Part shown: piece after piece, positions 5,079-19,789 of the stretch
Numbering within the stretch: position 1 is the stretch's first letter
Layout: each line of letters opens with the position of its first letter
NCBI RefSeq assembly: GCF_002075285.3
Contig: NZ_CP021983.2
Location: 300,001-332,000, forward strand
Reading direction: 5' to 3'
DNA from: Halomicronema hongdechloris C2206
GTDB taxonomy: Bacteria; Cyanobacteriota; Cyanobacteriia; Phormidesmidales; Phormidesmidaceae
Length of the DNA stretch: 32,000 bases
Notes under the pieces: generated by a model
What the model was told of the DNA's origin: nothing
The model's input: only the letters and a program-made list of their open reading frames with translations
The model's database searches: none
Position numbers and translations under genes: made by a program

Positions 5079-7811
5079 GTGTGGTTAGTTGTCGTGCCCG
5101 TTGCTATCGAATCCCTGATCAATGCGGATGTTGCCAAACCAGCCCGATATTTAGGCAATGAGCTGGGGGCTGTCCATAAACCCTGGCATCAGGCTCAGGT
5201 GCGATGGGCCCTCACCTACCCAGAACTCTACGAGGTGGGCGCCTCTAATCTGGGGCATATCATCCTGTACAGCATTCTCAATGCTCAACCTCGGCAACTG
5301 TGCGATCGCGCCTATTTGCCTGCTGCCGATTTAGTGACTAAGCTGCGGCAAAGCGGGACGCCTCTGTTTGCCGTCGAGTCCCGTCGCCATCTGCTCGAGT
5401 TCGACATTCTCGGTTTCAGCCTCAGCTACGAACTAGGGGCCACCAATCTGCTAGAAATGCTAGATCTGGCTCAGATTCCGTTGACCTGGCGAGAGCGACA
5501 GCAGGCGGGTCCCTGGGCCGTAGACAGCGGCAGTTGGCCCCTGATCTTTGCTGGGGGGCAAACGGCTACTTCCAATCCTGAACCCTACGCCGATTTCCTG
5601 GACTTCGTTGCCCTCGGGGATGGGGAGGAATTACTGCCTGAGATTGCCCTAGTGGTAGAAGAAGGCAAAGCCGCCGGGCTCAGTCGTCAAGACCTACTGC
5701 TCGATCTAGCTCAGGTGCCAGGGGTGTACGTACCCCAGTTCTATGACATGGCCGCCGATGGTTCCGTGTATCCCAACCGCCCTGATGTCCCGGCTCGGGT
5801 CGTGCGTCGGGTGGCAACACCGATGCCAGAGTATTCCATCGGCTTAGTGCCCTATGTCGAAACTGTCCATGACCGCCTCACGGTGGAAATTCGCCGTGGC
5901 TGCACCCGCGGCTGCCGCTTCTGCCAGCCCGGCATGCTAACCCGTCCCGCCCGGGATGTGTCGCCAGACAAAGTGGTAGACACCATTGAGCAGGGTCTTC
6001 GAAAAACTGGCTACAACGAGTTCTCCTTGCTCTCCCTGAGTTGCTCCGATTATCTGGCCCTACCTTCCCTAGGTGTAGAGGTGAAAAATCGGCTGCAACA
6101 GGAGAATATTTCCCTGTCCTTGCCCAGCCAGCGGGTTGACCGCTTCGATGAAAATATCGCTCACATTATCGGCGGTACTCGTCAAACCGGGCTGACATTT
6201 GCCCCGGAGGCTGGTACCCAGCGGATGCGAGACATTGTCAATAAGGGCCTAACCAACGAAGAGCTACTCCGGGGTGTCAAAACCGCCTATGAGCAGGGAT
6301 GGGATCGGGTGAAGCTCTACTTCATGATTGGTCTGCCGGGTGAGACCGATGTGGATGTCTTGGGGATTGCCGAGACCGTACGGTGGCTGCGGCAAGAATG
6401 TCGCCAGCCAGGACGCAAGGCTCTGGCGGTGAACCTGACCATTTCGAACTTCACCCCCAAACCCCATACCCCCTTCCAGTGGCATGCCGTGTCTACCGCC
6501 GAGTTTGAACGGAAGCAAGCCCTGCTTAAAGAAGAGTTTCGCTCCCTACGAGGGGTCAAGATGAATTTCACGGATGTGCGCATCTCGGCCATGGAAGACT
6601 TTGTCGGTCGCGGAGATCGTCGTCTAGCCGCTGTAGTGCATCGGGCCTGGCAACTGGGGGCGGGTATGGATGCCTGGTGGGAAAGTCTAGATCGGGCCTT
6701 TGCCGCTTGGACCCAAGCCATTGACGAGGCGGGGCTGAGCTGGAAGTATCGGCAGCGAGAGCAGGACTGGAACACGCTGGAGGCAGGCGAGCAGGCTGCA
6801 AGCCTGGAGGCTCCCTTGCCCTGGGACCACATCGATACCGGCATCGATAAAGCGTGGCTGCAGGCCGATCTGCGCCGGGCCTTGGCGGCCGCCACTGTGC
6901 CCGATTGTTCCTTTGAGGGCTGCTCCCACTGTGGGGTCTGTGGCCCCGACTTCGGCCACAACGTGGTGGTGGCGCCACCGCCAATTCCCACCTTTGAGGG
7001 ACACTTTACCCCGCCCCAAGAGCGGGTGCAGCGGATTCGGGTGCGCCTGGGTAAGCAGGGCAATCTCACCTTGCTCAGCCATTTGGATTTGATGCGGTTG
7101 CTGGATCGAGCCGTACGCCGGGCTGCCTTACCTCTGGCCTTTACGGGAGGGTTTCATCCGGGCCCGCGAATTTCTGCGGCCAATGCCTTACCCCTGGGGG
7201 CCACTAGTGCCGGTGAAATCGTCGATTTTGAGCTGACCTCTCCCTTAGCGGTCGCAGCCTTTTGCCAGCGGCTAGGGGCAGAACTGCCCTCGGAGCTCCC
7301 TATTCATGAGGCTGCGGAAGTATCTTTGTCGGCGCCGTCGGCGACCAAGGCCTTGGCGCAGGCTGAGTATGTGATCACGGTGGCAGGGGCCGACGAGGTT
7401 GCGATCGCACCAGCAGAGTGGGCGGCCTGGGTCGCTGCCGTCAAGGCGGCCGATAGGATAATCTGGGACCATCGGACTAAGTCGGGCAAGTTGCGGCAGG
7501 TCAATCTGTGCGATCGCCTCGATAGCCTTGACCCGATAGCGGCTCCGTCTCCTCAGGACCTGCCACCCCAGAGCCACCTCAGCGATCCAGCCCATCAGGC
7601 CCTGATTCGCTATGGGGGCAGTTGTCGCAATGACGGCAGCCAACTGCGCCCCGACCATGTGGTCTTCATGCTAGAGCAGGTGAGCCAACGGCCCCTACGG
7701 CTCTGTCACATCCATCGTCAACGGCTTATCCTTACTCCTACGCCGGGAGATTCTACCCATGCAGCTGAAATGGTTACGGCCTCGGTTACGGCTTCTTTGG
7801 GGACCCATTAA
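5079..7811 (+). CDS. radical SAM protein (TIGR03960-like, B12-binding-type N-domain) fused to a DUF2344/TIGR03936-like C-terminal domain
   Basis: 910 aa. N-terminal KPARYLGNELG motif, CxxxCxxC cluster in EIRRGCTRGCRFCQPG, and a C-terminal half beginning RIRVRLGKQGNLTLLSHLDLMRLLDRAVRRA...PLAFTGGFHPGPRIS. The start is GTG at 5079 or 5094 and is not resolved. Confidence 0.9.
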   Translation: MWLVVVPVAIESLINADVAKPARYLGNELGAVHKPWHQAQVRWALTYPELYEVGASNLGHIILYSILNAQPRQLCDRAYLPAADLVTKLRQSGTPLFAVESRRHLLEFDILGFSLSYELGATNLLEMLDLAQIPLTWRERQQAGPWAVDSGSWPLIFAGGQTATSNPEPYADFLDFVALGDGEELLPEIALVVEEGKAAGLSRQDLLLDLAQVPGVYVPQFYDMAADGSVYPNRPDVPARVVRRVATPMPEYSIGLVPYVETVHDRLTVEIRRGCTRGCRFCQPGMLTRPARDVSPDKVVDTIEQGLRKTGYNEFSLLSLSCSDYLALPSLGVEVKNRLQQENISLSLPSQRVDRFDENIAHIIGGTRQTGLTFAPEAGTQRMRDIVNKGLTNEELLRGVKTAYEQGWDRVKLYFMIGLPGETDVDVLGIAETVRWLRQECRQPGRKALAVNLTISNFTPKPHTPFQWHAVSTAEFERKQALLKEEFRSLRGVKMNFTDVRISAMEDFVGRGDRRLAAVVHRAWQLGAGMDAWWESLDRAFAAWTQAIDEAGLSWKYRQREQDWNTLEAGEQAASLEAPLPWDHIDTGIDKAWLQADLRRALAAATVPDCSFEGCSHCGVCGPDFGHNVVVAPPPIPTFEGHFTPPQERVQRIRVRLGKQGNLTLLSHLDLMRLLDRAVRRAALPLAFTGGFHPGPRISAANALPLGATSAGEIVDFELTSPLAVAAFCQRLGAELPSELPIHEAAEVSLSAPSATKALAQAEYVITVAGADEVAIAPAEWAAWVAAVKAADRIIWDHRTKSGKLRQVNLCDRLDSLDPIAAPSPQDLPPQSHLSDPAHQALIRYGGSCRNDGSQLRPDHVVFMLEQVSQRPLRLCHIHRQRLILTPTPGDSTHAAEMVTASVTASLGTH

Positions 7812-10195: not shown

Positions 10196-11335
10196 TCAAT
10201 CAATTTGTCCCTGTCCCGACATGCCATTGATTCGAAGCGTTTGTTCCCACAGGGCTTCCACGGCAGCCAAAAGCTCTGGCTGCTGCCAGTTTTTGTGGAG
10301 ATGGGCTGCGATCGCACATCCGCCAGCCCCCACCCCTTCCTTCACAAATCCCTGCTCATAGGCTCGCAGTTGCGGATAATGAGACCTCTCAAAGCTCAAC
10401 TGAGTGGCGATTAGCGGCACATCTGCTACCTGCACAGCAAGGCCAACCGTGTCTCCACTACCATCTGTGGCCACCCAACGGGTCGTTCCCACGGCAATGC
10501 GCTCCGGGGTCCAAGCTAGGCCATGGTAGCCTGCCACTGCCCGCAGCAGCGCGTAGACAGCCAACATTTGGGTCCCCCCCGCCAGCAACACCCCAACCCG
10601 TCGACTTGCCGCAATTGCCATCGCCGCCACCACCACCTGCATCGGGTCACCTACCGCCGCCGCCAGTGCCAATGGATCTAGGGCCCCCTCCGTAAAGGCA
10701 GGGGATTGCCGCCAGGCAGACAGTCCGGCTTGGGCAACTGCTAACTTCTGTGTATGGTTACAGGTGGGATGGCTGCTGTTGACCCGGTCCGTGGCGTCGA
10801 TCCCTAACCCCAGTAGCACGGCCAAGGCCGTTGTGGTTCCCCCTACCACGCATTCTCCCAGGACGAGATACCCTGCCTGGGCCTCTCGAGATAACCGCTC
10901 CCCCCAGTGCACCCCCCGTTGCCATAGCTGCCGCACTTGAGCCATCGGCATAGCCTCTCCCCCACTCAAACAGCTAGCCACAGGCCCCTGCAAGTCAATC
11001 GCAGGAGCGGGTAGAGGGTGAGGCAATCCGGCATTAAATAGCCGCAACGGCAAGTGCTGGCTAGTCACCAGCGCCCGGGTAATGATGGCCGGTGACGCTC
11101 CTGCCATCAACGGCGGTAAGGCATAACGAGGGCGAGGATGGGGACCCTTATAGAGAAATTCCGCGTCTGCCAGTGCCGTCTGCTGTCGATCAGCTGGAGT
11201 TGCCCCTGCCGCTGAAATTCCGGGAATCAAGCCCGTAGCCGTAAAGCCAAAGACAATGGCAATATAAGGCCGTCGCCAGCGACAGCAATCTAACCATTGT
11301 TGTCCAGCCTCAACCTGAGTATGAACCTGGTTCAT
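10196..11335 (-). CDS. CobT-like nicotinate-mononucleotide phosphoribosyltransferase family protein (TIGR00303/UPF0284, archaeal type)
   Basis: FGFTATGLIPGISAAGATPADRQQTALADAEFLYKG and GECVVGGTTTALAVLLGLG match my recollection of this family. I prefer the ATG at 11335 (MNQVH..., 17 nt after the upstream stop) over the TTG at 11380, which would overlap the upstream gene. Confidence 0.78.
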   Translation of the reverse strand: MNQVHTQVEAGQQWLDCCRWRRPYIAIVFGFTATGLIPGISAAGATPADRQQTALADAEFLYKGPHPRPRYALPPLMAGASPAIITRALVTSQHLPLRLFNAGLPHPLPAPAIDLQGPVASCLSGGEAMPMAQVRQLWQRGVHWGERLSREAQAGYLVLGECVVGGTTTALAVLLGLGIDATDRVNSSHPTCNHTQKLAVAQAGLSAWRQSPAFTEGALDPLALAAAVGDPMQVVVAAMAIAASRRVGVLLAGGTQMLAVYALLRAVAGYHGLAWTPERIAVGTTRWVATDGSGDTVGLAVQVADVPLIATQLSFERSHYPQLRAYEQGFVKEGVGAGGCAIAAHLHKNWQQPELLAAVEALWEQTLRINGMSGQGQID

Positions 11336-11352
11336 GGAGAAGGCAAGCGAGG

Positions 11353-12168
11353 TTAACTCTCCAACAAGACTTGTACCCAACGAGGAGGGGCAGGCATCGG
11401 CATCCCCAGTCGTTCTAGCAACAACCCAGCAGCCAGGTGCACGGTGAACAGGTAAACCACATTGCTGATCACTACCATCACCAGCGCCAATCCCTGAACC
11501 GTGAGCAGATCAACCTGGCCCAGAACAGCAACGCCGAGTATACCCAGATCAACCAACCGTTCCAGGATCCAATCCAAGATTTGGGCCATTTGATTGATCA
11601 AATACACCCAGAGATCTTCGCCGATCAGCATTGATAACAACCAGATGCGGAAGAAAAATCCCAAACTACCTAACAAAGTGCCCACAGCAATCGAAACATA
11701 CCAATTGGCCCGACGAAACCACAGGTATCCCAGTTGCACCCCCAAGACTCCATAGGGCATCAGAAACAGTAGGCTGCGAGGGGGTCCCATCAACACCGCT
11801 AACAATAGGCTGGCCACCAATGCCGACATCCATGCCGCCCGAGCTCCCCAACGCAAATACACCATGGCCATGGGCACCGGGAAGAAGATGCGGAGCAGAG
11901 GTCCTGGCGGAAAGTAGGCATTAATTAGCCAGATCAAACTGGCCGTGCTAGCCAAGAATGCCGTTTCCACCATCACTAAGGGACCGGCCTTACTGGCCAG
12001 TTGGTGTCTCAAGCGCTGAGTTCCCACTCCCGATGCCGGAGTATAGGTCAGAAATGCCTCAACGTCCTCAAATTCTGCCTCTATCTCCCGGTCAGAAGAA
12101 CCATCTGGAGACGATGACGACGATGACGAACTGGCCTGAAATGCCCGGTGGGCAAACGAATCACTCAT
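11353..12168 (-). CDS. polytopic membrane protein, DUF2232-like
   Basis: 271 aa. A Ser/acidic N-terminal tail is followed by about 6 hydrophobic helices. Its ATG is separated from the crp-family stop only by GGAGTC (TGA-GGAGTC-ATG), which implies translational coupling. The family name is from memory of the cyanobacterial neighbourhood of TIGR00303 genes. Confidence 0.62.
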   Translation of the reverse strand: MSDSFAHRAFQASSSSSSSSPDGSSDREIEAEFEDVEAFLTYTPASGVGTQRLRHQLASKAGPLVMVETAFLASTASLIWLINAYFPPGPLLRIFFPVPMAMVYLRWGARAAWMSALVASLLLAVLMGPPRSLLFLMPYGVLGVQLGYLWFRRANWYVSIAVGTLLGSLGFFFRIWLLSMLIGEDLWVYLINQMAQILDWILERLVDLGILGVAVLGQVDLLTVQGLALVMVVISNVVYLFTVHLAAGLLLERLGMPMPAPPRWVQVLLES

Positions 12169-12174
12169 GACTCC

Positions 12175-12879
12175 TCAAACTAGCAGACGCTCCAGAGCAT
12201 CAATGTCTGGAATCCGCATAATATCGCGCTCTCGCACGATCAAAGTCTTTTTCTCCAGTTTGCTGAGAACCCGAGTCACTGTCTCTCGAGCTAGGCCACT
12301 CAAACTACTGAGTTCTCGATGGGGTAAATTAGGAATCTCAACGCCATTATCCCCCTCTTGCCCCTGACCATCCGCTAGAAACAAGATAATGTCGGCCACC
12401 CGAGACATACTGTCCGACTCTCGGAGACGCAAGCGGCGATTTACCTGACGTAAACGCCGAGCCATGAGTTGAGCCAATCGAATACCCGCAATAGGTTCGG
12501 TGTGGATGAGATGCACAAAATCGTTGGCTGGCATATTGCCAATCATGGTGGGCACTAAGGTAATCACATCCGTGGAGCGAGGCACCTCATCTAGGGGAGC
12601 CATTTCCCCGAAGACTTCTCCCTTGCCCAAAATATTCAGCGTTACCTCTTTGCCGTCTAGATTGTAGGTACGAATTTTGACCCAACCGTCCAAAATAAAA
12701 TAAACAGAGGATCCCCAGTCATTCTCTAGCAGCAACACCTGGTTAGCAGGGTGTCGACGAGTAACAACCTGAGCCGTTGCCTGCTGCACTGCGGCGTCAG
12801 GAATACCTTGAAAGAAAGGAGCTGAGCGGATCAACTCACTCTCTGAGTGATGATCACGAGGGCCGTAGCGAGGGTCCAT
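12175..12879 (-). CDS. Crp/Fnr-family transcriptional regulator
   Basis: 234 aa. The cNMP-binding beta-barrel signature is VYFILDGWVKIRT...GKGEVFGEMA. The C-terminal HTH is HRELSSLSGLARETVTRVLSKLEKKTLI. It does not match the NtcA sequence as I recall it. Confidence 0.9.
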   Translation of the reverse strand: MDPRYGPRDHHSESELIRSAPFFQGIPDAAVQQATAQVVTRRHPANQVLLLENDWGSSVYFILDGWVKIRTYNLDGKEVTLNILGKGEVFGEMAPLDEVPRSTDVITLVPTMIGNMPANDFVHLIHTEPIAGIRLAQLMARRLRQVNRRLRLRESDSMSRVADIILFLADGQGQEGDNGVEIPNLPHRELSSLSGLARETVTRVLSKLEKKTLIVRERDIMRIPDIDALERLLV

Positions 12880-13410
12880 AGGTTACTACACTAAGTTCTG
12901 GTCAGGGAAACGGATTCGACATGCTATTGAGCCGATAGTCATGCCCGCAGCCCACCACTGCCGCTAGAGACAGTCCAGGCTCAGGGTAGCTATGGGTTAC
13001 TAGCCATGCTTACCATCTCCCTAAGGGAGTCATCAGGTAAAATCAGCAGGTTTACGGATATATTGGCTATCGTTTTCATCCAGGCTGATCAATAGTGGCC
13101 GCAGGGAGTCCTCTGGCAAACTTTCCCAGAAACCTATTAACATACTACCCCGGAGATTTCCTCCCTCTGACCCCGGTGCCACCATCGGTCGACCTCTGGG
13201 CATCAATGCGCTTAGCCACGAAGTATTCGTCACGTCTAACTAAGGCATTCTGTGACGTTTTGTGTGAGTTGGCCTACACTTTGGGCAATCCCTCGGTTAT
13301 CGAGGGCAGTAGCTGATGATTTTCTTGGACTTGGGGGCCTTTATATACCGAGGTGGATTTGGTACCACCGTATTGTAGGCGCTAAATGGGTATGCCTTGA
13401 TGGATTTAAG

Positions 13411-16400
13411 GTGGGTAAGGTGACAGAGCAACGGGATCAACTCGAGACGCTAATAGAAGATATCGATGCCCTTTTGAAGAAGGCATCTCCTCGGTTTGGG
13501 CGTGGTGCCCAGGAGGACAGTCAACAGCGTCAGATCCTGGAGCGAGCCCGCCAGCACATCCTTGATCTGCAGCAATGGATGACTGCGCCGGGAGGGTGGG
13601 GACCAATTGATCCTGCCAGTGGTGCCGTTGACCCTCCTGAGGATTCTAATCCGGATCTTACTGAGTCAGCCCAAACCGTGCTACGGGCATTGCTACAAGA
13701 GATGCAATACCTGCGCAGCCAGTTCATTCAACCCTTGCGTACTGAGATAGAGACACTGCAGCAGGAGCGGACTGAGTTACTGGAACAGGTGCGGCAATTA
13801 GAAGTGGAGCGTCTCAGGCTGCAAGGACAGTCTCCTGAGCCATCTTCCCAGCAGGAGTGGATACAAGTGGTGGCCCACCACCTAGAGGCCTCCTTAGCAG
13901 AGCGCCTTGACCGGGCCGTGGCACGCCGGCAGGCAGAGACGAGTAATCGTCCCCTATTAGAAGGTACACCGCCCCAGCCAGCAGAAGCCGACCTGTCATT
14001 GCTAGATCCCCATCAGCGCTTGGCTTATGTGAGGCGAGTTCAGGCTGAAGCCGATCAGGCATTGCTCCAGCTAGACAATACCCTCCGGGCTGTCTTTGCA
14101 ACTCTGCAACAGAACGCACTCAGCTATCAAGATTCCCTAGCTCAGGGATTAGCCGCCATGCATTCCCTAGGTCAACAGGGAGAAGTCACCCTGCGGGCTC
14201 TGATCAGTGATTTGGGGCAGCAACTGCGTCAAGAAGTGGCTTACCTAGAGGCAGCAAGCACTGATGAGCAGGGGCAATTGCTAGCGGCTCAGCAGACATC
14301 CCCATCCTCAACAGAGCGGCCTGATGATACCGACACCGATAGCATCTCGACGGCGGCAACGGCTGCTGCAGCTCCTGATCTAGACTGGGAGCTGGCCGAC
14401 GAAGTTGAGTTTGAAGCCGACGAAGAAATTACTCTGTTGCAACTCGATCAGGAAATCGAGCAGTTGCAACTGGACGCTACGGCAGATCCTTCCCTATTGT
14501 TGGAAGAGGACACCGAGACAGAAGCTCCTGACGTATCGGAGCCGACTGCCGCTGCCGCTTCAGACTTTCCTGTCGATCCATTAACCGTGTTAGGGCAACT
14601 CGATCAGGCGCTCCCTGATCCTGAGCAGCGGGTAGATGTTCCCGACCGCTCCGTTGATGCCACCATTGCCGCTGCCGCTGAAGAGCTTTTCCCGGATGCT
14701 GAGGCTGAGGCTGAGGCTCTCTTTGCGGATCTATTCGGTCCAGCACCAGCATCCTCTAGCCAGGATACCGCCACCGCAGCCGAGCCTTCCATTCCTGACA
14801 ATGCTGATGAGACTACTGAATCATCTCCTGATGACAGCCTGGCCTCGTCACCAGCGGCAGATGACGATCTTTCTTTAGAGACTGACGAGACCGGAGCGCC
14901 CTCAACCAGCATAGACCGGCTAGACGAAATATTGTTTGACGAGGATCTCTTGCAGGTGCCCCCTGAGTCGTCGAACGCAGACCATCTTGGCACTGAGATA
15001 GATCTATTTGGGGAAGCTACCGCGGCAACCTTAGAGCAGCCTAGGGTTGAGGTGACCGACACCATACATTCTTTGGATCAGCTTCTCCCGAGCGGCAGCC
15101 TTGACCGCGATACTAGCAGCCCTTCCTTGGCCGAATCTGAGGCCCTAGCAGCTGAGCCATTTATTCCTGCCAGTCCCGATGAGGACTTGCTCACTACTGA
15201 GACTGATACGGAGTCGGCTTCGTCTCCTCTATCCCTTGATCCAGATATTCTGGCCCAGTTAACCGCTGACCTCTCTCGCCTGGAGGGACCATCGGTATCC
15301 GCAGAAGATGGTTTGGAATTCTTAGCTGGGGGGCAAGCCCTAGAGGAGGATGACATCCCCGAGCAGCCGACCGATAGAGAACCAGCCCCCCCACCCCCCT
15401 CCTCAGCAGCGACCTGGGCGTCAGACTCGTCTGTCTTTGAAACCACTGTGGATGACTGGAAGACGGCTGTGCAGTCCACGACAGATACCCTGCTAGATGA
15501 ATCGGGGTTGATGGCTGAGGAGCATGAGGCCGAAACACCAAGCGCCCAAGCGTCGGCTCCCCAGATGTCCTCATCGACTGCAGAGGCGCCGGAGTCTGCC
15601 CAGCATCTTGATCTTCCGGATGATGACCTAGATCCCCTCGCGGCTCAAGTGTCAGAGGTTCCCTATGGTTCCCCTAGGGCCGAACATGTTATCGATGCCG
15701 TGGGGACATCCCAATCATCGACACCTGAACCAAATTCCCCGGCCGAGTTAGATCCGGACACGCTGACTTGGGAGACCTGGGCGGATGCAGCCGCTACACC
15801 TACCTCCATTGAAGCCACCGAGGAGGACTTGGCAGAAACCCTGCCACCAGAGGACTGGCTGTCTATAGATACTAGTCCGGTAGCCACGTCAGAGGCGGAT
15901 CGGCCTGACGAGACAACGGCTGCACCAGAAATAGAGTCATATACCGCTGAGTGGAAGGACCCAGAGCAGATAGGCACTGAGGAAAATCCCGAGTCGATCG
16001 ATAGTGCCATCCCGGCGGCCTCTGAGGAGACCCGACAGTCAGCGACTACCTCAGCGCCGGAAGGTGAAGCGTCTTGGTCGTCAGATACCTCCTTGGCAGC
16101 ATCCCCACTGCCAACGACACCCGAGGCAGCCCCAGCGGCTGAGTCCATGTCTGGAGCGGCTGAGATTGACACACACGAAGCACCGATTGAATCGTCAGAG
16201 CAGCTTGAGGCCACTCTAGATGAGCAGCCCCTGGTGGAAACCGACGCCGCTGCTCCATGGCCCTCTGTGGCTGGAGAAGCCCGGGAAGAAACAGCGGCAG
16301 CTTCCGCTAATGCCAGGGTCGAAGAACCTCTGCCAGAGATGACCGCATTGTCCGGTTCTGATGCTGAGGAGGGCGGGGCAGAGTGGTCAGAGGTGCTGGC

Positions 16401-18576
16401 GACTGAGAGCGAGGATGATTGGGTAGGGCAGGATGACACCGACTCTCAGGATAGGGAGCCAGCTATTGCTGGTACGGTGCTGCGTTCCCCTAGTCCTGCC
16501 ACTGCTGACCCCTCGTCTGAGCACTCTGATTCGGTAGAAGAGGCGCGGTTGGATCAGCCTGGGGCTGAAGACGCAGGCGTGTCGGCATCAACCGACGGTG
16601 AGCAGGGCGCAACGGGTGAGTCGCGGCTGGAACCACCATTGGCAACGGCGGAGCCAACGCAGATGGCGGCGACCCCGGCTGGGATGAGTCCTGACGCTTC
16701 GGCATTGCCTGGGGAGACCTCGGGCGAGTGGTTTTTAGGGCTAGATATTGGTACCACTGGCCTGTCAGCGGTCTTGCTCAACCGGGCCGATGGTCAGGTG
16801 TATCCCCTCTATTGGATCGACTCTACTCTGGCAGATAGTGTGGCCGAGAAGATCTTTCGCTTGCCAGCAGTGGTGTCGATAGCGGCTGACTCGGGGGATA
16901 CCTCGATGCCGTGGCGGGTGCGATCGCATGGTATGGCTGCCTTAGCTGTGAACTGGGCAGAGGAGGCGGCACATCCCTACCGGCTGCTGACGGCCATGAA
17001 GCCGCTCTTGCAGCTGGGCATTCCCTACCAAGCCCCTGATACCCAGCACTGGCAACCACAGTTGCCTTGGCCCGAGGGGGACCCGCTGCCCCTGCAGGCG
17101 GTGCAGTTGGGACTGCAATCGCTGCTGCAGACCCTAACCCCTAGCCAAGGGACAGCCCTCGTTTTGGGGGCCACAGACCTCGACCAGCAATCGCTACATC
17201 AGGCCATATCCCACTTGCAAGGGGTCATCGTCAACTATCCGGCGGCATGGTCTGATACCTATAGTTTCAACCTGCGGGAAGCGATTCTGGCGGCGGGATT
17301 AGTCTCGCAACCCGATGCCATCTACTTCATCGAAGATGCGATCGCAGCGATTCTCTCTGGCCTGCCGGATCCGGACCGCCTCGCCCCGCCCCAAGTTCAG
17401 TCCCTGAAGCAGCAGAACCTTTACGGCGGCCAATGGCACGGTGGCACCGTCGTCATCAGTGCTGGGGCCAGCCTCAGCGAAATTGCCGTGGTCAACCTGC
17501 CCCACGACGCCGAGGCCCTGAGTCGAGAAGATTTTGTCCTACAGCGGCTAGACTATGGCGGCAATGCCATCGATCTGGACATCATTTGCCAGCTCTTGCA
17601 TCCCAGTGAGCGTCGCCAACCAACCCAGACATCTGCCGCCCCCGATCCAGATGACACGGGTTGGGGCTGGCAGGCAGCCCTGCCAGAGCTGGCCCATACC
17701 CCCTGGAGTAGCCTAGGGCTCTCGCAGCTATCCTTACCCCGGCCAGGGGACCCGGACCTGGAGATGCGATCGCAGCTGCAGCAACGATTAGAATCCTCCT
17801 TATTGGGGCAAACCGTCTTGGAAGCAGCCCGCCACCTGAAGCTAATCCTGCAGCACCAATCCCAATTCAACCTGGTCCTAGGGAATCAATGCTGGCAAGT
17901 GCGGCGCAAAGAGCTAGAGAGCCAAATCTTACTGCCCTATCAACGCCGACTCAACCAGGCCTTGAATCAGCTGCTGAGTCAAACCGGACTGAGCAATCAA
18001 GCCATTAACCAGGTCATTTGCACCGGTGGTACCGCCTCCCTTAAATTTCTCAGTGACTGGCTGCGACAAAAACTCCCGAACGCCACCATCATCCAGGATA
18101 CTTACCCCAGCAATCGTCCCCCCAGCTGCAGCCGCGTAGCTTATGGGTTAGTCAATCTAGCCCGATATCCCCAACTGCTGGAAAAGACTCGCCATCAATA
18201 CAGCGACTACTTCCTGCTGCTGGAGCTGTTGCGCACCTTCCCCGATCAGCCGATGCCGCTGGCTGGCATTGTCCATTTGCTCGAGCAACGGGGCATTAAC
18301 ATCCAAGCCTGCCAAGACCACCTCTTCGCACTGCTGGACGGACACTTACCACCAGGCCTACTGCCTCCACCCCAGTGGAGTAGCCATCAGCCTGGCCGAC
18401 TACAGGCCCTCAGGAGTGTTCCCCTATTTAGCCGCGGGTCGGGCCAGATCTATGTCCCTAACTCAGCCCAGTGTCAGCGACTTTGGGACTATCTCCAGCA
18501 CATCTTGGCCAATAAGCGCCAGCCCCTGCAAGAGCCCCTCGTGATTCCCCTGTGGACCATGGCCCCAGTCCCCTGA
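13411..18576 (+). CDS. giant protein: N-terminal coiled coil, ~800-aa acidic low-complexity region, C-terminal Hsp70-like (actin-fold) ATPase domain
   Basis: Single uninterrupted ORF. C-terminal motifs WFLGLDIGTTGLSAV (phosphate-1), VIVNYPAAWSDTYSFNLREAILAAGL...IEDAIAAIL, GGTVVISAGASLSEIAVV and VICTGGTASLKFL (adenosine motif) are in Hsp70 order. The start is uncertain: GTG at 13411 or 13420 is likelier than the ATG at 13252, whose first 53 codons (MTFCVSWPTLWAIPRL...) look non-native. Confidence 0.85.
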   Translation: MGKVTEQRDQLETLIEDIDALLKKASPRFGRGAQEDSQQRQILERARQHILDLQQWMTAPGGWGPIDPASGAVDPPEDSNPDLTESAQTVLRALLQEMQYLRSQFIQPLRTEIETLQQERTELLEQVRQLEVERLRLQGQSPEPSSQQEWIQVVAHHLEASLAERLDRAVARRQAETSNRPLLEGTPPQPAEADLSLLDPHQRLAYVRRVQAEADQALLQLDNTLRAVFATLQQNALSYQDSLAQGLAAMHSLGQQGEVTLRALISDLGQQLRQEVAYLEAASTDEQGQLLAAQQTSPSSTERPDDTDTDSISTAATAAAAPDLDWELADEVEFEADEEITLLQLDQEIEQLQLDATADPSLLLEEDTETEAPDVSEPTAAAASDFPVDPLTVLGQLDQALPDPEQRVDVPDRSVDATIAAAAEELFPDAEAEAEALFADLFGPAPASSSQDTATAAEPSIPDNADETTESSPDDSLASSPAADDDLSLETDETGAPSTSIDRLDEILFDEDLLQVPPESSNADHLGTEIDLFGEATAATLEQPRVEVTDTIHSLDQLLPSGSLDRDTSSPSLAESEALAAEPFIPASPDEDLLTTETDTESASSPLSLDPDILAQLTADLSRLEGPSVSAEDGLEFLAGGQALEEDDIPEQPTDREPAPPPPSSAATWASDSSVFETTVDDWKTAVQSTTDTLLDESGLMAEEHEAETPSAQASAPQMSSSTAEAPESAQHLDLPDDDLDPLAAQVSEVPYGSPRAEHVIDAVGTSQSSTPEPNSPAELDPDTLTWETWADAAATPTSIEATEEDLAETLPPEDWLSIDTSPVATSEADRPDETTAAPEIESYTAEWKDPEQIGTEENPESIDSAIPAASEETRQSATTSAPEGEASWSSDTSLAASPLPTTPEAAPAAESMSGAAEIDTHEAPIESSEQLEATLDEQPLVETDAAAPWPSVAGEAREETAAASANARVEEPLPEMTALSGSDAEEGGAEWSEVLATESEDDWVGQDDTDSQDREPAIAGTVLRSPSPATADPSSEHSDSVEEARLDQPGAEDAGVSASTDGEQGATGESRLEPPLATAEPTQMAATPAGMSPDASALPGETSGEWFLGLDIGTTGLSAVLLNRADGQVYPLYWIDSTLADSVAEKIFRLPAVVSIAADSGDTSMPWRVRSHGMAALAVNWAEEAAHPYRLLTAMKPLLQLGIPYQAPDTQHWQPQLPWPEGDPLPLQAVQLGLQSLLQTLTPSQGTALVLGATDLDQQSLHQAISHLQGVIVNYPAAWSDTYSFNLREAILAAGLVSQPDAIYFIEDAIAAILSGLPDPDRLAPPQVQSLKQQNLYGGQWHGGTVVISAGASLSEIAVVNLPHDAEALSREDFVLQRLDYGGNAIDLDIICQLLHPSERRQPTQTSAAPDPDDTGWGWQAALPELAHTPWSSLGLSQLSLPRPGDPDLEMRSQLQQRLESSLLGQTVLEAARHLKLILQHQSQFNLVLGNQCWQVRRKELESQILLPYQRRLNQALNQLLSQTGLSNQAINQVICTGGTASLKFLSDWLRQKLPNATIIQDTYPSNRPPSCSRVAYGLVNLARYPQLLEKTRHQYSDYFLLLELLRTFPDQPMPLAGIVHLLEQRGINIQACQDHLFALLDGHLPPGLLPPPQWSSHQPGRLQALRSVPLFSRGSGQIYVPNSAQCQRLWDYLQHILANKRQPLQEPLVIPLWTMAPVP

Positions 18577-18826: not shown

Positions 18827-19789
18827 TTGATTCATGCAACGCTACATCAACTGAAAGTATTTGAGGCAACGGCCCGCCATGGCAGCTTTACCCGCGCTGC
18901 CGAGGAGCTCTTCTTAACCCAGCCCACTGTCTCGATTCAGGTCAAGCAGCTGACAAAAGCAGTTGGGTTGCCCCTGTTCGAACAAATCGGTAAGCGCCTC
19001 TATCTCACCCAAGCCGGCCAAAAACTCTTGGAGACCTGCCAAGAGATCTTCGCAGGGCTGGATCAATTTGAGATGTCAGTGGCCGACCTCAAGGGCCTGA
19101 AACAAGGCCAGCTCAAGCTAGCGGTCATTACCACCGCCAAATATTTCGTGCCGCGGCTACTCGGTCCCTTTTGCCAGCGCTATCCCGGCGTTGACATTTC
19201 CCTCAAGGTGACCAATCACCAGCATATTCAGGAGCGCATGGCTAACAACGAAGACGATCTTTACATCATCAGCCAGCCCCCTGAACAACCCGATCTCAAG
19301 ATTTATCCATTCTTGGAAAATCCTTTAGTGGTCATCGCTCCCAAAAATCATCCCCTGGTCGGCAAATCTAATGTCGCCATCCAAGCCCTCAATGATGAGC
19401 CCTTTATCATGCGGGAACCGGGTTCAGGGACCCGGCATGCGGTTCAATCTCTCTTTGCCAAGCACAAGATAGACGTGCGGGTACGCTTGGAGCTGGGCAG
19501 CAATGAAGCCATTAAACAGGCCATTGCTGGCGGTCTGGGGATCTCGGTCCTGTCGCTCCATACCATTATTTCCGAGGGCACCAGCGGCGAATTTGCCATT
19601 CTCGATATCGACCATTTCCCCATCGAGCGGCAATGGTATGTGGCCCATTTGGCCGGCAAACAACTCTCCGTAGTAGCTGACACGTTCTTGACCTACTTGC
19701 AAACAGAAAGCCATACCCTGGCCGAGAAATTCTTACCGGGCATCAAACCAGCTAAGGCCAGGCAGGGCAACCTCTCGAAGGCATCGTAG
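18827..19789 (+). CDS. cmpR: LysR-family transcriptional regulator, CbbR/CmpR type
   Basis: 320 aa. The N-terminus ATLHQLKVFEATARHGSFTRAAEELFLTQPTVSIQVKQLTK...LFEQIGKRLYLTQAG and the following LKLAVITTAKYFVPRLLGPFCQRYPG match the cyanobacterial CmpR/CbbR subgroup as I recall it. The start is TTG at 18827. No cmpABCD genes are adjacent, so the symbol is tentative. Confidence 0.82.
   Translation: MIHATLHQLKVFEATARHGSFTRAAEELFLTQPTVSIQVKQLTKAVGLPLFEQIGKRLYLTQAGQKLLETCQEIFAGLDQFEMSVADLKGLKQGQLKLAVITTAKYFVPRLLGPFCQRYPGVDISLKVTNHQHIQERMANNEDDLYIISQPPEQPDLKIYPFLENPLVVIAPKNHPLVGKSNVAIQALNDEPFIMREPGSGTRHAVQSLFAKHKIDVRVRLELGSNEAIKQAIAGGLGISVLSLHTIISEGTSGEFAILDIDHFPIERQWYVAHLAGKQLSVVADTFLTYLQTESHTLAEKFLPGIKPAKARQGNLSKAS

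What the first reader, a model, noticed from the sequence alone, without database searches (positions are those of the whole stretch)
13411..18576. Giant coiled-coil / hyper-acidic disordered / Hsp70-like ATPase fusion protein
One ORF of about 1720 codons has three very different parts. (i) About 280 aa are heptad-rich and predicted coiled coil (LQEMQYLRSQFIQPLRTEIETLQQERTELLEQVRQLEVERLRLQ). (ii) About 800 aa are D/E/S/T/A/P-rich low-complexity sequence almost devoid of Lys (I see only two) and with few Arg. This part has no exact tandem repeats but has recurring short motifs such as LDQ[AL]LP, LDEILFDEDLL and QLDQEIEQLQLD. (iii) About 640 aa are an actin-fold/Hsp70-like nucleotide-binding domain with phosphate-1 (LGLDIGTTGLS), connect and adenosine (ICTGGTASL) motifs. 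This part lacks a recognisable Hsp70 substrate-binding domain and ends in a distinct ~150-aa tail. I do not recognise such an architecture as characterised. Fusing an ATPase module to a coiled coil and a polyanionic spacer suggests a cytoskeletal, scaffolding, cation-binding or condensate-forming role rather than classical chaperoning. It sits divergently from a Crp-family regulator operon across a 530-bp intergenic region.
Basis: partly seen in the sequence, partly recalled or inferred. Interest (0 to 1): 0.65.

Follow-up and report, generated by a model that had tools for sequence, protein, structure and literature searches.

The report
Giant acidic Hsp70-like cyanobacterial protein
This is a real, expressed gene for a 1718-residue protein that joins a coiled-coil head, a very long negatively charged floppy spacer and an Hsp70-type nucleotide-binding domain without a chaperone substrate domain; the design recurs in hundreds of cyanobacterial species, all identifiable ones filamentous, and nobody has studied it.

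Summary
The ORF is XM38_002960 of Halomicronema hongdechloris C2206, annotated as a hypothetical protein. Its true start is GTG 13420, giving 1718 aa.

It has three modules:
- a conserved helical N-domain with two heptad segments;
- a 743-aa polyanionic linker with 2 Lys and net charge -161;
- a 638-aa conserved C-terminal region.

AlphaFold2 models the C-terminal region confidently (pLDDT 88.6, pTM 0.91). All 50 listed Foldseek hits are Hsp70 nucleotide-binding domains (E about 1e-12). Sequence profiles stay below threshold for HSP70, PilM and BcrAD. The Hsp70 Asp/Lys/Glu and adenosine glycines are conserved, but the phosphate-2 Asp is Asn, Ser or Thr. No substrate-binding domain follows, only a family-specific 140-aa tail.

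It is not a fusion artefact. Fifty-four other genomes encode all three parts in one uninterrupted frame. Their linkers run from 355 to 2148 aa, with net charge down to -581. Four genomes split it into two adjacent genes. A divergent Crp-DUF2232-CobT operon is conserved upstream. Every homologue is a "hypothetical protein", and I found no literature.

The most likely role, which is inferred, is a nucleotide-gated tether or scaffold. I class it as a new family and architecture within the actin/Hsp70 (ASKHA) superfamily.

The parts
13420..18576 (+). Gene XM38_002960 (WP_137454982.1), 1718 aa plus a TGA stop. The GenBank model starts 9 nt upstream, at 13411.
   Evidence: Detected with 2 TMT peptides.
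13420..14235 (+). Conserved helical N-terminal domain (residues 4 to about 275 in 1721-aa numbering). It is about 31-40% identical across 45 genomes.
   Evidence: No Pfam hit. The profile finds only generic coiled coils in the PDB, with ZapB best at E 0.035.
13735..13830 (+). Heptad (coiled-coil) segment 1, residues 109-140: LRTEIETLQQERTELLEQVRQLEVERLRLQGQ.
14011..14220 (+). Heptad segment 2, residues 201-270. It holds the most conserved block, LD..LR.VF..LQ....SY.DSL.QGL..MH.LGQQGE.
14422..14475 (+). Conserved acidic-amphipathic motif EEITLLQLDQEIEQLQLD (family consensus TLLQLDEEITxLQLD).
   Evidence: The same motif is seen in L001 and P0122.
14713..14739 (+). Short linear motif EALFADLFG (family consensus D-x-L-Y-x-S-L-F-G). 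It occurs once per protein in 43 of 55 full-length proteins, and Gly443 is nearly invariant.
   Evidence: It is also present in gene 1 of the split loci L084 and L085 and in Nostoc P0276.
14431..16659 (+). Polyanionic disordered linker, residues 341-1083. It has D+E 24%, 2 Lys, 16 Arg and net charge -161, with no repeats and no hydrophobic clusters.
   Evidence: Orthologue linkers run 355-2148 aa with net charge -46 to -581.
16729..18159 (+). Hsp70-type nucleotide-binding domain (ASKHA fold), residues 1107-1583.
   Evidence: AF2 gives pLDDT 88.6 and pTM 0.91. All 50 listed Foldseek hits are Hsp70 NBDs, E 6e-13 to 4e-11. hhalign gives a local match to DnaK at E 6.7e-4. Sub-threshold PilM_2, BcrAD and HSP70 hits.
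16735..16767 (+). Phosphate-1 motif LGLDIGTTGLS. The Asp, Gly, Thr-Thr and Gly are conserved in 64-68 of the 67-68 rows with a residue.
16999..17001 (+). Conserved Lys (MKPLL; Lys in 67 of 71 sequences), which I align by eye with the catalytic Lys70 of DnaK (KRLIG).
   Evidence: The equivalence is an inference from motif order.
17326..17349 (+). Connect-1 motif FIEDAIAA. The Glu is conserved in 67 of 71 sequences and I align it with Glu171 of DnaK (NEPTAAA).
17449..17481 (+). Degenerate phosphate-2 motif VVISAGASLSE (family consensus xAGATxTE). The position of the Hsp70 Mg-site Asp is Asn 30, Ser 23, Thr 13, Asp 2.
18010..18042 (+). Adenosine motif QVICTGGTASL. Gly456 is invariant and Gly457 is present in 68 of 71 sequences.
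18160..18573 (+). Family-specific C-terminal tail of about 140 aa in place of an Hsp70 substrate-binding domain. It is a helical/beta unit with a weak winged-helix resemblance.
   Evidence: AF2 of the tail gives pLDDT 84. Foldseek finds no significant match; the best is E 0.39, among forkhead, ArsR, GntR and MarR folds.
12880..13419 (.). Divergent intergenic region of 540 bp (median 533 bp in 56 loci). No conserved CRP-type palindrome was found.
10196..12879 (-). Conserved divergent operon: Crp/Fnr regulator XM38_002940 (12175-12879), DUF2232 membrane protein (11353-12168) and CobT-like phosphoribosyltransferase (10196-11380).
   Evidence: Conserved upstream in 54, 52 and 48 loci respectively, and also in Nostoc and Trichocoleus.

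Best explanation
XM38_002960 belongs to an unnamed protein family of cyanobacteria. All identifiable members come from filamentous taxa.

**Shown**
- The protein is a single cytoplasmic polypeptide with no signal peptide and no transmembrane segment.
- It consists of a conserved helical N-domain with two coiled-coil segments, then two short conserved motifs, then a hypervariable, well-mixed polyanionic disordered linker.
- After the linker comes an Hsp70-type nucleotide-binding domain, capped by a family-specific tail instead of a substrate-binding domain.

**Inferred mechanism**
- The coiled coil oligomerises or anchors the protein.
- The linker acts as a length-tunable, self-repelling entropic spacer, in effect a polyelectrolyte brush. 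Its composition is under selection, not its sequence.
- The NBD and tail act as a nucleotide-controlled binding switch. The ATP-binding residues are kept, but the Mg-site Asp of phosphate-2 is lost, so I expect ATP binding with slow or partner-stimulated hydrolysis. That would resemble Ssz1, Hsp110 or PilM rather than a cycling DnaK.
- Some lineages encode the coiled-coil/linker part and the NBD part as two adjacent genes. The halves therefore probably also bind each other non-covalently, and the DxLYxSLFG motif is the obvious candidate site.
- Overall it would be a nucleotide-gated tether or scaffold. It may be co-regulated with the conserved divergent Crp-family regulator.
For: **Real gene and real fusion**
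- In 54 other genomes the N-domain, linker and C-domain lie in one stop-free frame, giving proteins of 1322-3093 aa.
- The same architecture occurs in Nostoc (P0276).
- The protein was detected in a TMT proteome.

**Split version**
- L075, L084, L085 and L086 carry a split two-gene version, with the genes 40-95 nt apart.

**Fold**
- AF2 gives pLDDT 88.6 and pTM 0.91.
- All 50 listed Foldseek hits are Hsp70 NBDs.
- hhalign aligns subdomain IIB and the adenosine motif to DnaK.
- 30 of 48 members give weak PilM_2 hits, which supports the ASKHA superfamily at the sequence level.

**Active site and tail**
- The tail is not an SBD.

**Linker properties**
- Hydrophobic residues are less clustered than in shuffles, median z -2.45 over 52 orthologues.
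- There is no transmembrane segment; the highest 19-residue hydropathy mean is 1.47.

**Distribution**
- Synteny with the Crp operon is conserved.
- At least 594 species genomes hold a relative, and there are 479 clusters at 50% identity.
Against: - No experiment or annotation bears on function. The mechanism is inference from anatomy.
- Nucleotide binding is untested.
- The Hsp70-like assignment rests on a predicted structure. Sequence profiles do not reach significance: PF00012 scores 11 bits against 20.6, and the family profile against PDB DnaK gives E 0.52.
- Only about 100 residues show clear heptads, so oligomerisation is unproven.
- 12 of 55 proteins lack a regex match to the LF-G motif.
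- The restriction to filamentous taxa is read from named hits only, not from a full phyletic profile.
- Two TMT peptides do not show a full-length product.
Confidence: 0.4

Rival explanations
1. It is a non-canonical chaperone or holdase. The NBD drives an ATP cycle, the family-specific tail takes the place of the substrate-binding domain, and the polyanionic linker keeps clients or the protein itself soluble.
For: The closest structures are Hsp70 NBDs. The equivalents of Lys70 and Glu171 and the phosphate-1 motif are conserved. One UniRef entry for a Nostoc homologue is named "Molecular chaperone".
Against: There is no SBD-beta, no lid and no interdomain linker, and the tail matches nothing significantly. 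The phosphate-2 Asp is replaced in 69 of 71 sequences. No J-domain or GrpE gene is linked to it in the window. A canonical, abundant DnaK2 exists in the same organism, with 47 peptides against 2. A conserved coiled-coil head is not expected of a chaperone.
Confidence: 0.17
2. It is a polymerising actin-like cytoskeletal ATPase in the manner of MreB, ParM, FtsA or PilM. The filaments would be decorated by acidic side-arms and bundled through the coiled coil.
For: It has the ASKHA fold. The best Pfam signal at the family level is PilM_2, in 30 of 48 members with a best E of 4.9e-6. It has a coiled-coil head, as cyanobacterial filament-forming proteins do. All named hits come from filamentous taxa or from MAGs with only coarse labels.
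Against: All 50 listed Foldseek hits are Hsp70 NBDs, not actin, MreB, ParM, FtsA or PilM. No PilM_2 match shown with a score reaches the 27-bit cutoff, and the window's match covers only the IIA adenosine region. Hsp70-type NBDs are not known to polymerise (my own knowledge).
Confidence: 0.13
3. The acidic linker is the functional part. It would act as a cytoplasmic sink or buffer for divalent cations or polyamines, or as a nucleic-acid mimic, with the NBD only regulating it.
For: The net charge is -161 here and reaches -581 in orthologues. Basic residues are depleted in all 55 proteins.
Against: The N-domain, two short motifs and the NBD plus tail are far more conserved than the linker. Linker acidity varies two-fold, from 16% to 31% D+E. 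There are no known Ca-binding repeats. The abundance is very low, NSAF 0.0016%, which is poor for a buffer.
Confidence: 0.08
4. It is an artefact: a misassembled or mis-called fusion of separate genes, or a chance ORF through low-complexity DNA.
For: Many database homologues are "partial", and contigs often break in the linker. Metagenome contig L001 shows frameshifts. Some lineages do have two genes. Long antisense ORFs lie inside the linker.
Against: 54 independent genomes, including isolate genomes, carry one continuous frame. The window matches the 5.58-Mb C2206 contig. RefSeq and GenBank both call the full gene. Peptides were detected.
Confidence: 0.01

Closest known systems
Hsp70/DnaK nucleotide-binding domain (PF00012); closest in behaviour to atypical members such as Ssz1 and Hsp110
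   Same: It shares the four-subdomain ASKHA NBD fold: the best Foldseek matches have E 6e-13 and target-normalised TM up to 0.68. It also shares the phosphate-1 DxGTT motif, a Lys in a KRLIG-like position, a Glu in an NEPTAA-like motif, the IIB helix and the adenosine GG motif.
   Different: Identity is only 12-16%, and the sequence falls below the Pfam cutoff. The phosphate-2 Asp is replaced. The NBD has inserts, about 477 aa against about 380. There is no interdomain linker, SBD-beta or lid, and a unique 140-aa tail takes their place. About 1100 aa of coiled coil and polyanion precede it.
PilM/FtsA-type actin-like proteins (PF11104)
   Same: This is the best family-level sequence signal, weak as it is, and it covers the IIA adenosine region. 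These proteins are ATP-binding ASKHA proteins that clamp short partner peptides (my own knowledge). That is a useful model for a motif-to-NBD interaction.
   Different: No score shown reaches the gathering threshold, and none of these proteins is among the 50 listed structural matches. The gene is not in a pilMNOPQ context.
SepJ (FraG) of heterocystous cyanobacteria
   Same: By my own knowledge, SepJ has the same design logic: an N-terminal coiled coil, a long low-complexity linker of variable length and a conserved C-terminal functional domain, in filamentous cyanobacteria.
   Different: The C-terminal domain of SepJ is an integral-membrane permease, and its linker is Pro/Ser/Thr-rich rather than polyanionic. 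There is no sequence relationship. This comparison was not tested here.
Stand-alone bacterial Hsp70-like ATPases without an SBD (YegD, NCBIfam NF008673/PRK11678)
   Same: Both have an Hsp70-type NBD with only a short C-terminal extension and unknown function.
   Different: The match is negligible, E 0.16 and 10.8 bits against a 331-bit cutoff. YegD has no coiled coil or acidic linker (my own knowledge).

Membership tests
Hsp70/DnaK chaperones (PF00012) | The sequence scores above the Pfam HSP70 gathering threshold. | tested here: not met
   11 bits, E 0.12, against a 20.6-bit cutoff. Only 2 of 48 family members reach E <= 0.01. The family profile against PDB DnaK gives E 0.52.
Hsp70/DnaK chaperones (PF00012) | The NBD has the Hsp70-type actin-like ATPase fold. 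| tested here: met
   The AF2 model has pLDDT 88.6. All 50 listed Foldseek hits are Hsp70 NBDs, E 6e-13 to 4e-11. This rests on a predicted structure, not a solved one.
Hsp70/DnaK chaperones (PF00012) | The full catalytic set is present (DnaK Asp8, Lys70, Glu171, Asp194, Thr199/Asp201). | tested here: inconclusive
   The equivalents of Asp, Lys and Glu, and a T-E in phosphate-2, are conserved. The Asp194 position is Asn, Ser or Thr in 66 of 71 sequences. The residue equivalences are read from motif order, not from a structural superposition that I could inspect.
Hsp70/DnaK chaperones (PF00012) | An interdomain linker, a beta-sandwich substrate-binding domain and a helical lid are present. | tested here: not met
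   Only about 140 aa follow the NBD. The model of this tail is helical with a small sheet, and Foldseek finds no SBD and no significant match.
Hsp70/DnaK chaperones (PF00012) | ATP hydrolysis is stimulated by J-domain partners. | not testable with these tools
   This needs biochemistry. No J-domain or GrpE gene lies in the window.
ASKHA (actin/Hsp70/sugar-kinase) superfamily | A duplicated RNase-H-like core carries the phosphate-1, phosphate-2 and adenosine motifs. | tested here: met
   The motifs and their conservation are. Weak hits to three ASKHA Pfam families all fall on the adenosine motif.
PilM / actin-like cytoskeletal ATPases (PF11104, MreB, ParM, FtsA) | The sequence scores above the family threshold, or these families are the closest structural relatives. 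| tested here: not met
   PilM_2 scores 16.5 bits against 27. None of these families is among the 50 listed Foldseek matches.
PilM / actin-like cytoskeletal ATPases (PF11104, MreB, ParM, FtsA) | The protein polymerises in a nucleotide-dependent way. | not testable with these tools
   This needs purified protein or imaging.
Cyanobacterial coiled-coil-rich proteins (a loose class defined by predicted coiled-coil content) | The protein has substantial predicted coiled coil. | tested here: inconclusive
   Two heptad segments total 102 of 1721 residues, and 0 of 200 shuffles reach that. The profile hits only generic coiled coils weakly. I used a crude in-house score, not COILS or MARCOIL.
NTP-dependent conflict systems with HSP70 components (Kaur et al. 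2020, PMC7159879) | The HSP70 gene is linked to TRAFAC GTPase or tubulin genes, or to GAP1-N2/GrpE/DnaJ genes. | tested here: not met
   The neighbourhood here is a conserved housekeeping-type synteny with Crp, DUF2232 and CobT-like genes and no GTPase or tubulin.

The most novel reading that the evidence does not exclude
This is the founding member of an unrecognised class of bacterial structural proteins. It would be a nucleotide-gated, coiled-coil-anchored polyelectrolyte tether or brush, specific to filamentous (multicellular) cyanobacteria. The Hsp70-type NBD, freed from chaperoning, would act as an ATP-controlled clamp. The polyanionic arm, hundreds to thousands of residues long, would set spacing or exclusion inside the cell, much as neurofilament or MAP side-arms do in eukaryotes.
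Probability: 0.2. Interest if true: 0.8.

Novelty: new variant of a known kind. Interest (0 to 1): 0.6.

Why it matters
Filamentous cyanobacteria are a main bacterial model for multicellularity, and few proteins specific to them are understood. This is a large protein conserved in at least 594 species genomes, with conserved synteny to a Crp-family regulator. It has no family model, no name and no literature.

Its design is unusual for bacteria. The disordered arm reaches 2148 residues and a net charge of -581, and it is joined to an Hsp70-type nucleotide-binding domain that has lost the chaperone half. If the NBD proves to be a nucleotide-gated clamp on a polyelectrolyte tether, that would widen what Hsp70-fold domains are known to do. 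It would also provide a tractable bacterial case for how long charged disordered regions work.

The natural split and fused variants, and the 6-fold range in linker length, are ready-made experiments.

Tried and rejected
1. **Direct profile assignment.** Pfam, NCBIfam and PDB sequence searches with the protein or with the family profile give only sub-threshold ASKHA hits. The N-domain profile finds only generic coiled coils.
2. **Linker as an array of hydrophobic-acidic sticker motifs.** Rejected. Hydrophobic residues are less clustered than in shuffles.
3. **Tail as a recognisable domain.** Foldseek gives no significant hit, only a non-significant drift towards winged-helix folds.
4. **Conserved CRP-type palindrome in the divergent intergenic region.** None is conserved. 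The only hit is one 2-mismatch site in the window. Promoter and terminator scans are at chance level.
5. **Rfam.** No RNA family in the window.
6. **Neighbouring Crp as NtcA or PtrA.** It falls below both equivalog cutoffs.
7. **Neighbouring Crp as DevH.** I guessed it might be DevH (alr3952) and the giant gene all3951. That guess is wrong, because all3951 is an ArgRS-anticodon-binding-like protein. Whether the Crp is the DevH orthologue remains open.
8. **Link to Aravind-type HSP70 conflict systems.** The gene context does not fit.
9. **Downstream Bac_transf gene as a conserved partner.** Found in only 4 of 72 loci. The downstream LysR gene is found in only 10 loci.
10. **Literature.** Five keyword searches found nothing on this family.
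11. **Exact look-up of the 1718-aa product in the contig index.** It failed. The cluster look-up then succeeded.
Full report
**1. Is it there?**

A single + strand ORF runs from 13252 to 18576. The window is from Halomicronema hongdechloris C2206. The neighbouring Crp protein is identical to ASC69367.1 (XM38_002940). The ORF read from 13411 is identical to ASC69369.1 (XM38_002960, "hypothetical protein", 1721 aa). RefSeq models it as WP_137454982.1 with 1718 aa.

The 1718-aa start, GTG 13420, is the better one for three reasons:
- the Val it encodes is invariant in an alignment of 45 orthologous N-termini;
- homologues P0121 and P0122 begin VTSHQ and MTSHQ;
- an AAGGTGG Shine-Dalgarno-like sequence lies 5 nt upstream.

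A TMT proteome of this strain lists XM38_002960 with 2 peptides, NSAF 0.0016% and log2 far-red/white -0.38. Undetected genes show zeros in that table (PMC6416890 supplementary file 3). The protein is therefore made, at low level. Full length is not shown by those data.

**2. The three parts**

| Region (1721-aa numbering) | Composition | Lys / Arg | Asp / Glu | Net charge |
|---|---|---|---|---|
| 1-340 | Q/L/A/E/R-rich | 3 / 25 | 25 / 34 | -31 |
| 341-1083 | D 10.8, E 13.3, S 11.7, T 9.3, A 15.2, P 9.8 % | 2 / 16 | 80 / 99 | -161 |
| 1084-1721 | ordinary globular | 9 / 31 | 33 / 22 | -15 |

Neighbouring proteins in the window average K 2.5%, R 7.1% and D+E 9.7%. The organism is already Lys-poor, and the linker is depleted about 8-fold further in Lys and about 3-fold in Arg.

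The linker DNA has no tandem repeat apart from a 21-nt GCTGAG run. The protein has no transmembrane-like segment. Its highest 19-residue Kyte-Doolittle mean is 1.47, and that falls on an NBD strand.

A crude heptad score marks residues 109-140 and 201-270, and 0 of 200 shuffles reach that total. The "about 280 aa coiled coil" is better described as a conserved helical domain with about 100 residues of clear heptads.

**3. The C-terminal module**

Sequence profiles do not identify it. The best Pfam hits are all sub-threshold and all fall on the adenosine motif:
- PilM_2: E 0.004, 16.5 bits against a 27-bit cutoff;
- BcrAD_BadFG: E 0.04;
- HSP70: E 0.12, 11 bits against a 20.6-bit cutoff.

NCBIfam gives HscA at E 0.0045 and YegD-like PRK11678 at E 0.16. 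A profile of 71 family members against PDB sequences gives DnaK at E 0.52. Across 48 family members, 30 hit PilM_2 at E <= 0.01 (best 4.9e-6), 3 hit BcrAD and 2 hit HSP70. That places the family in the ASKHA superfamily at the sequence level, with no clear family within it.

Structure settles the question. AlphaFold2, run on the 71-sequence alignment without templates, gives mean pLDDT 88.6 and pTM 0.91 for all 638 residues. Foldseek against the PDB returns 252 matches at E <= 0.001. All 50 listed matches are Hsp70 NBDs (DnaK, BiP, Hsc70, Ssz1), with E 6e-13 to 4e-11, target-normalised TM 0.40-0.68 (about 0.57-0.68 on NBD-only chains) and 11-17% identity.

Column counts in the family are:
- phosphate-1, W-[YF]-L-G-[IL]-D-x-G-T-T-G: Asp in every row with a residue (67/67);
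- a Lys in LKPYLK, in 67 of 71 sequences, which I align with DnaK Lys70 in KRLIG;
- a Glu in E-[DE]-A-I-A, in 67 of 71, which I align with Glu171 in NEPTAA;
- adenosine, Q-V-I-C-T-G-G-T-A-S: Gly456 invariant;
- phosphate-2 reads x-A-G-A-T-x-T-E, and the position of the Hsp70 Mg-site Asp is Asn 30, Ser 23, Thr 13, Asp 2.

By my own knowledge of the Hsc70 D199 mutants (Wilbanks and McKay), that substitution lowers turnover but not binding. I therefore expect an ATP-binding switch with slow or stimulated hydrolysis. That is an inference.

After the NBD come about 140 residues. Modelled alone they reach pLDDT 84. They match nothing in the PDB significantly. The best hit has E 0.39, and the non-significant list is dominated by winged-helix regulators. 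There is no Hsp70 substrate-binding domain.

**4. Orthologues: real fusion, variable linker, natural split**

The C-terminal module finds 301 proteins at E <= 0.001 among the candidates scored. All carry cyanobacterial or cyanobacterium-derived labels, all are "hypothetical protein", and nearly all lack any precomputed Pfam domain. An exhaustive HMM search of 1.84 billion cluster representatives finds 479 at E <= 1e-3 and 371 at E <= 1e-30. Most are 1200-2700 aa, and the profile does not pull in canonical Hsp70s.

I examined 80 of those loci. In every locus whose contig reaches far enough upstream, except L026, L073 and L075, the N-domain and C-domain hits lie in the same stop-free frame. That gave 54 full-length orthologues of 1322-3093 aa.

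| Linker property across the 55 proteins | Range |
|---|---|
| Length | 355-2148 aa (median 1175) |
| D+E | 16-31 % |
| Lys count | 0-15 |
| Net charge | -46 to -581 |

Nostoc sp. N6 has the same architecture in 1468 aa. Its linker is a Ser/Thr/Pro/Gln/Asp/Glu-rich stretch with a 31-aa unit repeated five times.

Database "partial" entries and short contigs arise because assemblies break in the linker. Metagenome contig L001 has frameshifts there.

Four genomes carry a split version: L075, the closed Trichocoleus desertorum genome L084, Leptolyngbya sp. FACHB-711 (L085) and a Synechococcales MAG (L086). Gene 1 encodes the N-domain plus acidic linker, 1058-1089 aa where complete, and ends in ..EKKKx. 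Gene 2 lies 40-95 nt downstream and encodes the NBD plus tail, 631-678 aa. Fused and split states of the same two modules argue that the modules work together.

**5. What is conserved outside the globular parts**

The N-domain is 31-40% identical across genera. Two short motifs follow it:
- TLLQLDEEITxLQLD, which here reads EEITLLQLDQEIEQLQLD at 14422-14475;
- D-x-L-Y-x-S-L-F-G, which here reads EALFADLFG at 14713-14739.

The second motif matches once per protein in 43 of 55 full-length proteins. It also occurs in gene 1 of the split loci L084 and L085.

The rest of the linker cannot be aligned. Its hydrophobic residues are less clustered than in composition-preserving shuffles: median z is -2.45 over 52 orthologues, and none exceeds +2. 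That is the signature of a well-mixed, expanded polyanion. It is not the signature of an array of sticky motifs.

**6. Genomic context**

Immediately upstream and divergent lies a tightly packed operon of three genes: a Crp/Fnr regulator, a DUF2232 membrane protein and a CobT-like phosphoribosyltransferase.
- The arrangement is present in 54, 52 and 48 of the loci respectively, with Crp 65-85% identical.
- It also holds in Nostoc (L083) and Trichocoleus (L084).
- The clade with the shortest linkers (L032, L034, L043, L048, L058, L078) lacks it.
- The Crp is neither NtcA nor PtrA by the NCBIfam cutoffs.
- I found no conserved CRP-type palindrome in the intergenic region, which has a median length of 533 bp.

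The downstream genes are not conserved partners. The LysR/CbbR-like gene occurs in 10 loci, and a Bac_transf gene in 4 of 72. The rest of the window is housekeeping: Ppk1, Rce1-like protease, radical SAM, MltA, Rieske, arginine decarboxylase, TauE and GT2. Nothing suggests a mobile element or a defence island. The HSP70-containing conflict systems of Kaur et al. (PMC7159879) have a different gene context.

**7. How it most likely works**

The following are shown:
- it is a real, expressed, conserved gene;
- the order of parts is coiled-coil N-domain, two short motifs, polyanionic disordered spacer, Hsp70-type NBD, unique tail;
- ATP-site residues are retained except the phosphate-2 Asp;
- there is no substrate-binding domain;
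- fused and split forms are interchangeable.

The following are inferred:
- the N-domain oligomerises or anchors the protein;
- the linker is an entropic, self-repelling spacer whose length is tuned by lineage;
- the NBD and tail form a nucleotide-gated binding module;
- the halves contact each other, plausibly through the LF-G motif, by analogy with ASKHA proteins such as PilM and FtsA that clamp partner peptides.

I give this tether or scaffold reading about 0.4. The rivals are a non-canonical chaperone (0.17), a polymerising actin-like filament former (0.13), a cation or polyamine buffer or nucleic-acid mimic (0.08) and an artefact (0.01).

**8. Comparison with known families, and novelty**

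The domain works like, and looks like, an Hsp70 NBD. It is not a member of the Hsp70 chaperone family. It fails the Pfam threshold, lacks the SBD and lid, and has a degenerate phosphate-2 motif. It belongs to the ASKHA superfamily by fold and motifs.

The overall layout recalls SepJ (coiled coil, linker, C-terminal domain), but the domains are unrelated. That comparison rests on my own knowledge and was not tested here.

All named hits come from filamentous genera: Halomicronema, Nodosilinea, Leptolyngbya, Trichocoleus, Oculatella, Coleofasciculus, Argonema, Spirulina, Nostoc, Tolypothrix, Nodularia, Dolichospermum and Aphanizomenon. The others are MAGs with only coarse labels. No unicellular model strain appears. 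This suggests a link to filamentous growth, but it is not a proper phyletic test.

Five literature searches found nothing on the family.

**Verdict.** This is a new family and a new architecture built on a known fold, so I class it as a new variant of a known kind. Interest is 0.6.

Noticed in passing
L075:34-2886, L084:4759-7935, L085:4717-7905, L086:4690-7959: In the split-gene lineages the coiled-coil/linker protein ends in a short basic tail: ..SDEKKKLQ, ..NEKKKI, ..SEKKKS and ..TEKKN. This is the only Lys cluster in an otherwise Lys-poor acidic protein. A similar TEKKKE lies just before the NBD in the fused Nostocales protein P0093. It may mark the junction or a contact site.
   Followed up: partly
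P0276 (L083:8001-12407) and L001:10358-10933: Some orthologue linkers contain recent tandem protein repeats. Nostoc N6 has a 31-aa unit FFEEDTDLNSPLSFSTPQTDSPTQLDTQPAS repeated five times, and L001 has a roughly 32-aa unit repeated three times. Linkers therefore appear to grow by tandem duplication and then diverge. The window's own linker has no repeat left.
   Followed up: partly
window 12175-12879 (-): The divergent Crp/Fnr regulator is 75-85% identical in most loci across genera, far more conserved than the giant protein, and always sits with DUF2232 and a CobT-like gene. It is neither NtcA nor PtrA. Whether it is the orthologue of the essential cell-size regulator DevH (alr3952; PMC10068817) could not be settled.
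   Followed up: partly
window 12880-13419: GenBank annotates a small hypothetical gene, XM38_002950, between the Crp gene and the giant gene. The proteome table shows zero peptides for it, and no ORF of 80 aa or more lies there other than the upstream extension of the giant ORF (13252-13419).
   Followed up: no
window 13814-16439 (-): Several long antisense ORFs lie inside the acidic linker, for example 15663-16439 (258 aa) and 14604-15065 (153 aa). They look like by-products of the biased composition, because the sense frame is the one conserved in 54 genomes.
   Followed up: partly
window 18827-19789 (+): The LysR-family regulator directly downstream (XM38_002970; best NCBIfam match CbbR, below cutoff) is 83-89% identical in ten other genera. 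This suggests the conserved cyanobacterial RbcR/CmpR-type regulator. It is not consistently linked to the giant gene.
   Followed up: no
L001:7100-8433: Metagenome contig Ga0558101_10782 carries the orthologous gene broken by at least two frameshifts inside the N-domain and linker. The gene caller therefore reported a 284-aa "chromosome segregation ATPase". This shows how the family is fragmented and mis-named in databases.
   Followed up: yes
PMC6416890 supplementary file 3: The Gene Ontology columns of the published TMT table look shifted relative to the gene rows. For example, a TPR protein carries phosphoglycerate kinase terms and the Crp regulator is marked as an integral membrane component. 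Only the peptide counts should be trusted.
   Followed up: no
window 5079-7811 (+): A 910-aa protein fuses a radical SAM enzyme (Radical_SAM_N2 plus Radical_SAM) to a C-terminal DUF2344 domain. Parts of this upstream block (radical SAM gene, a 215-aa ORF, a solute-binding protein) recur upstream in L041, L051 and a few other loci.
   Followed up: no
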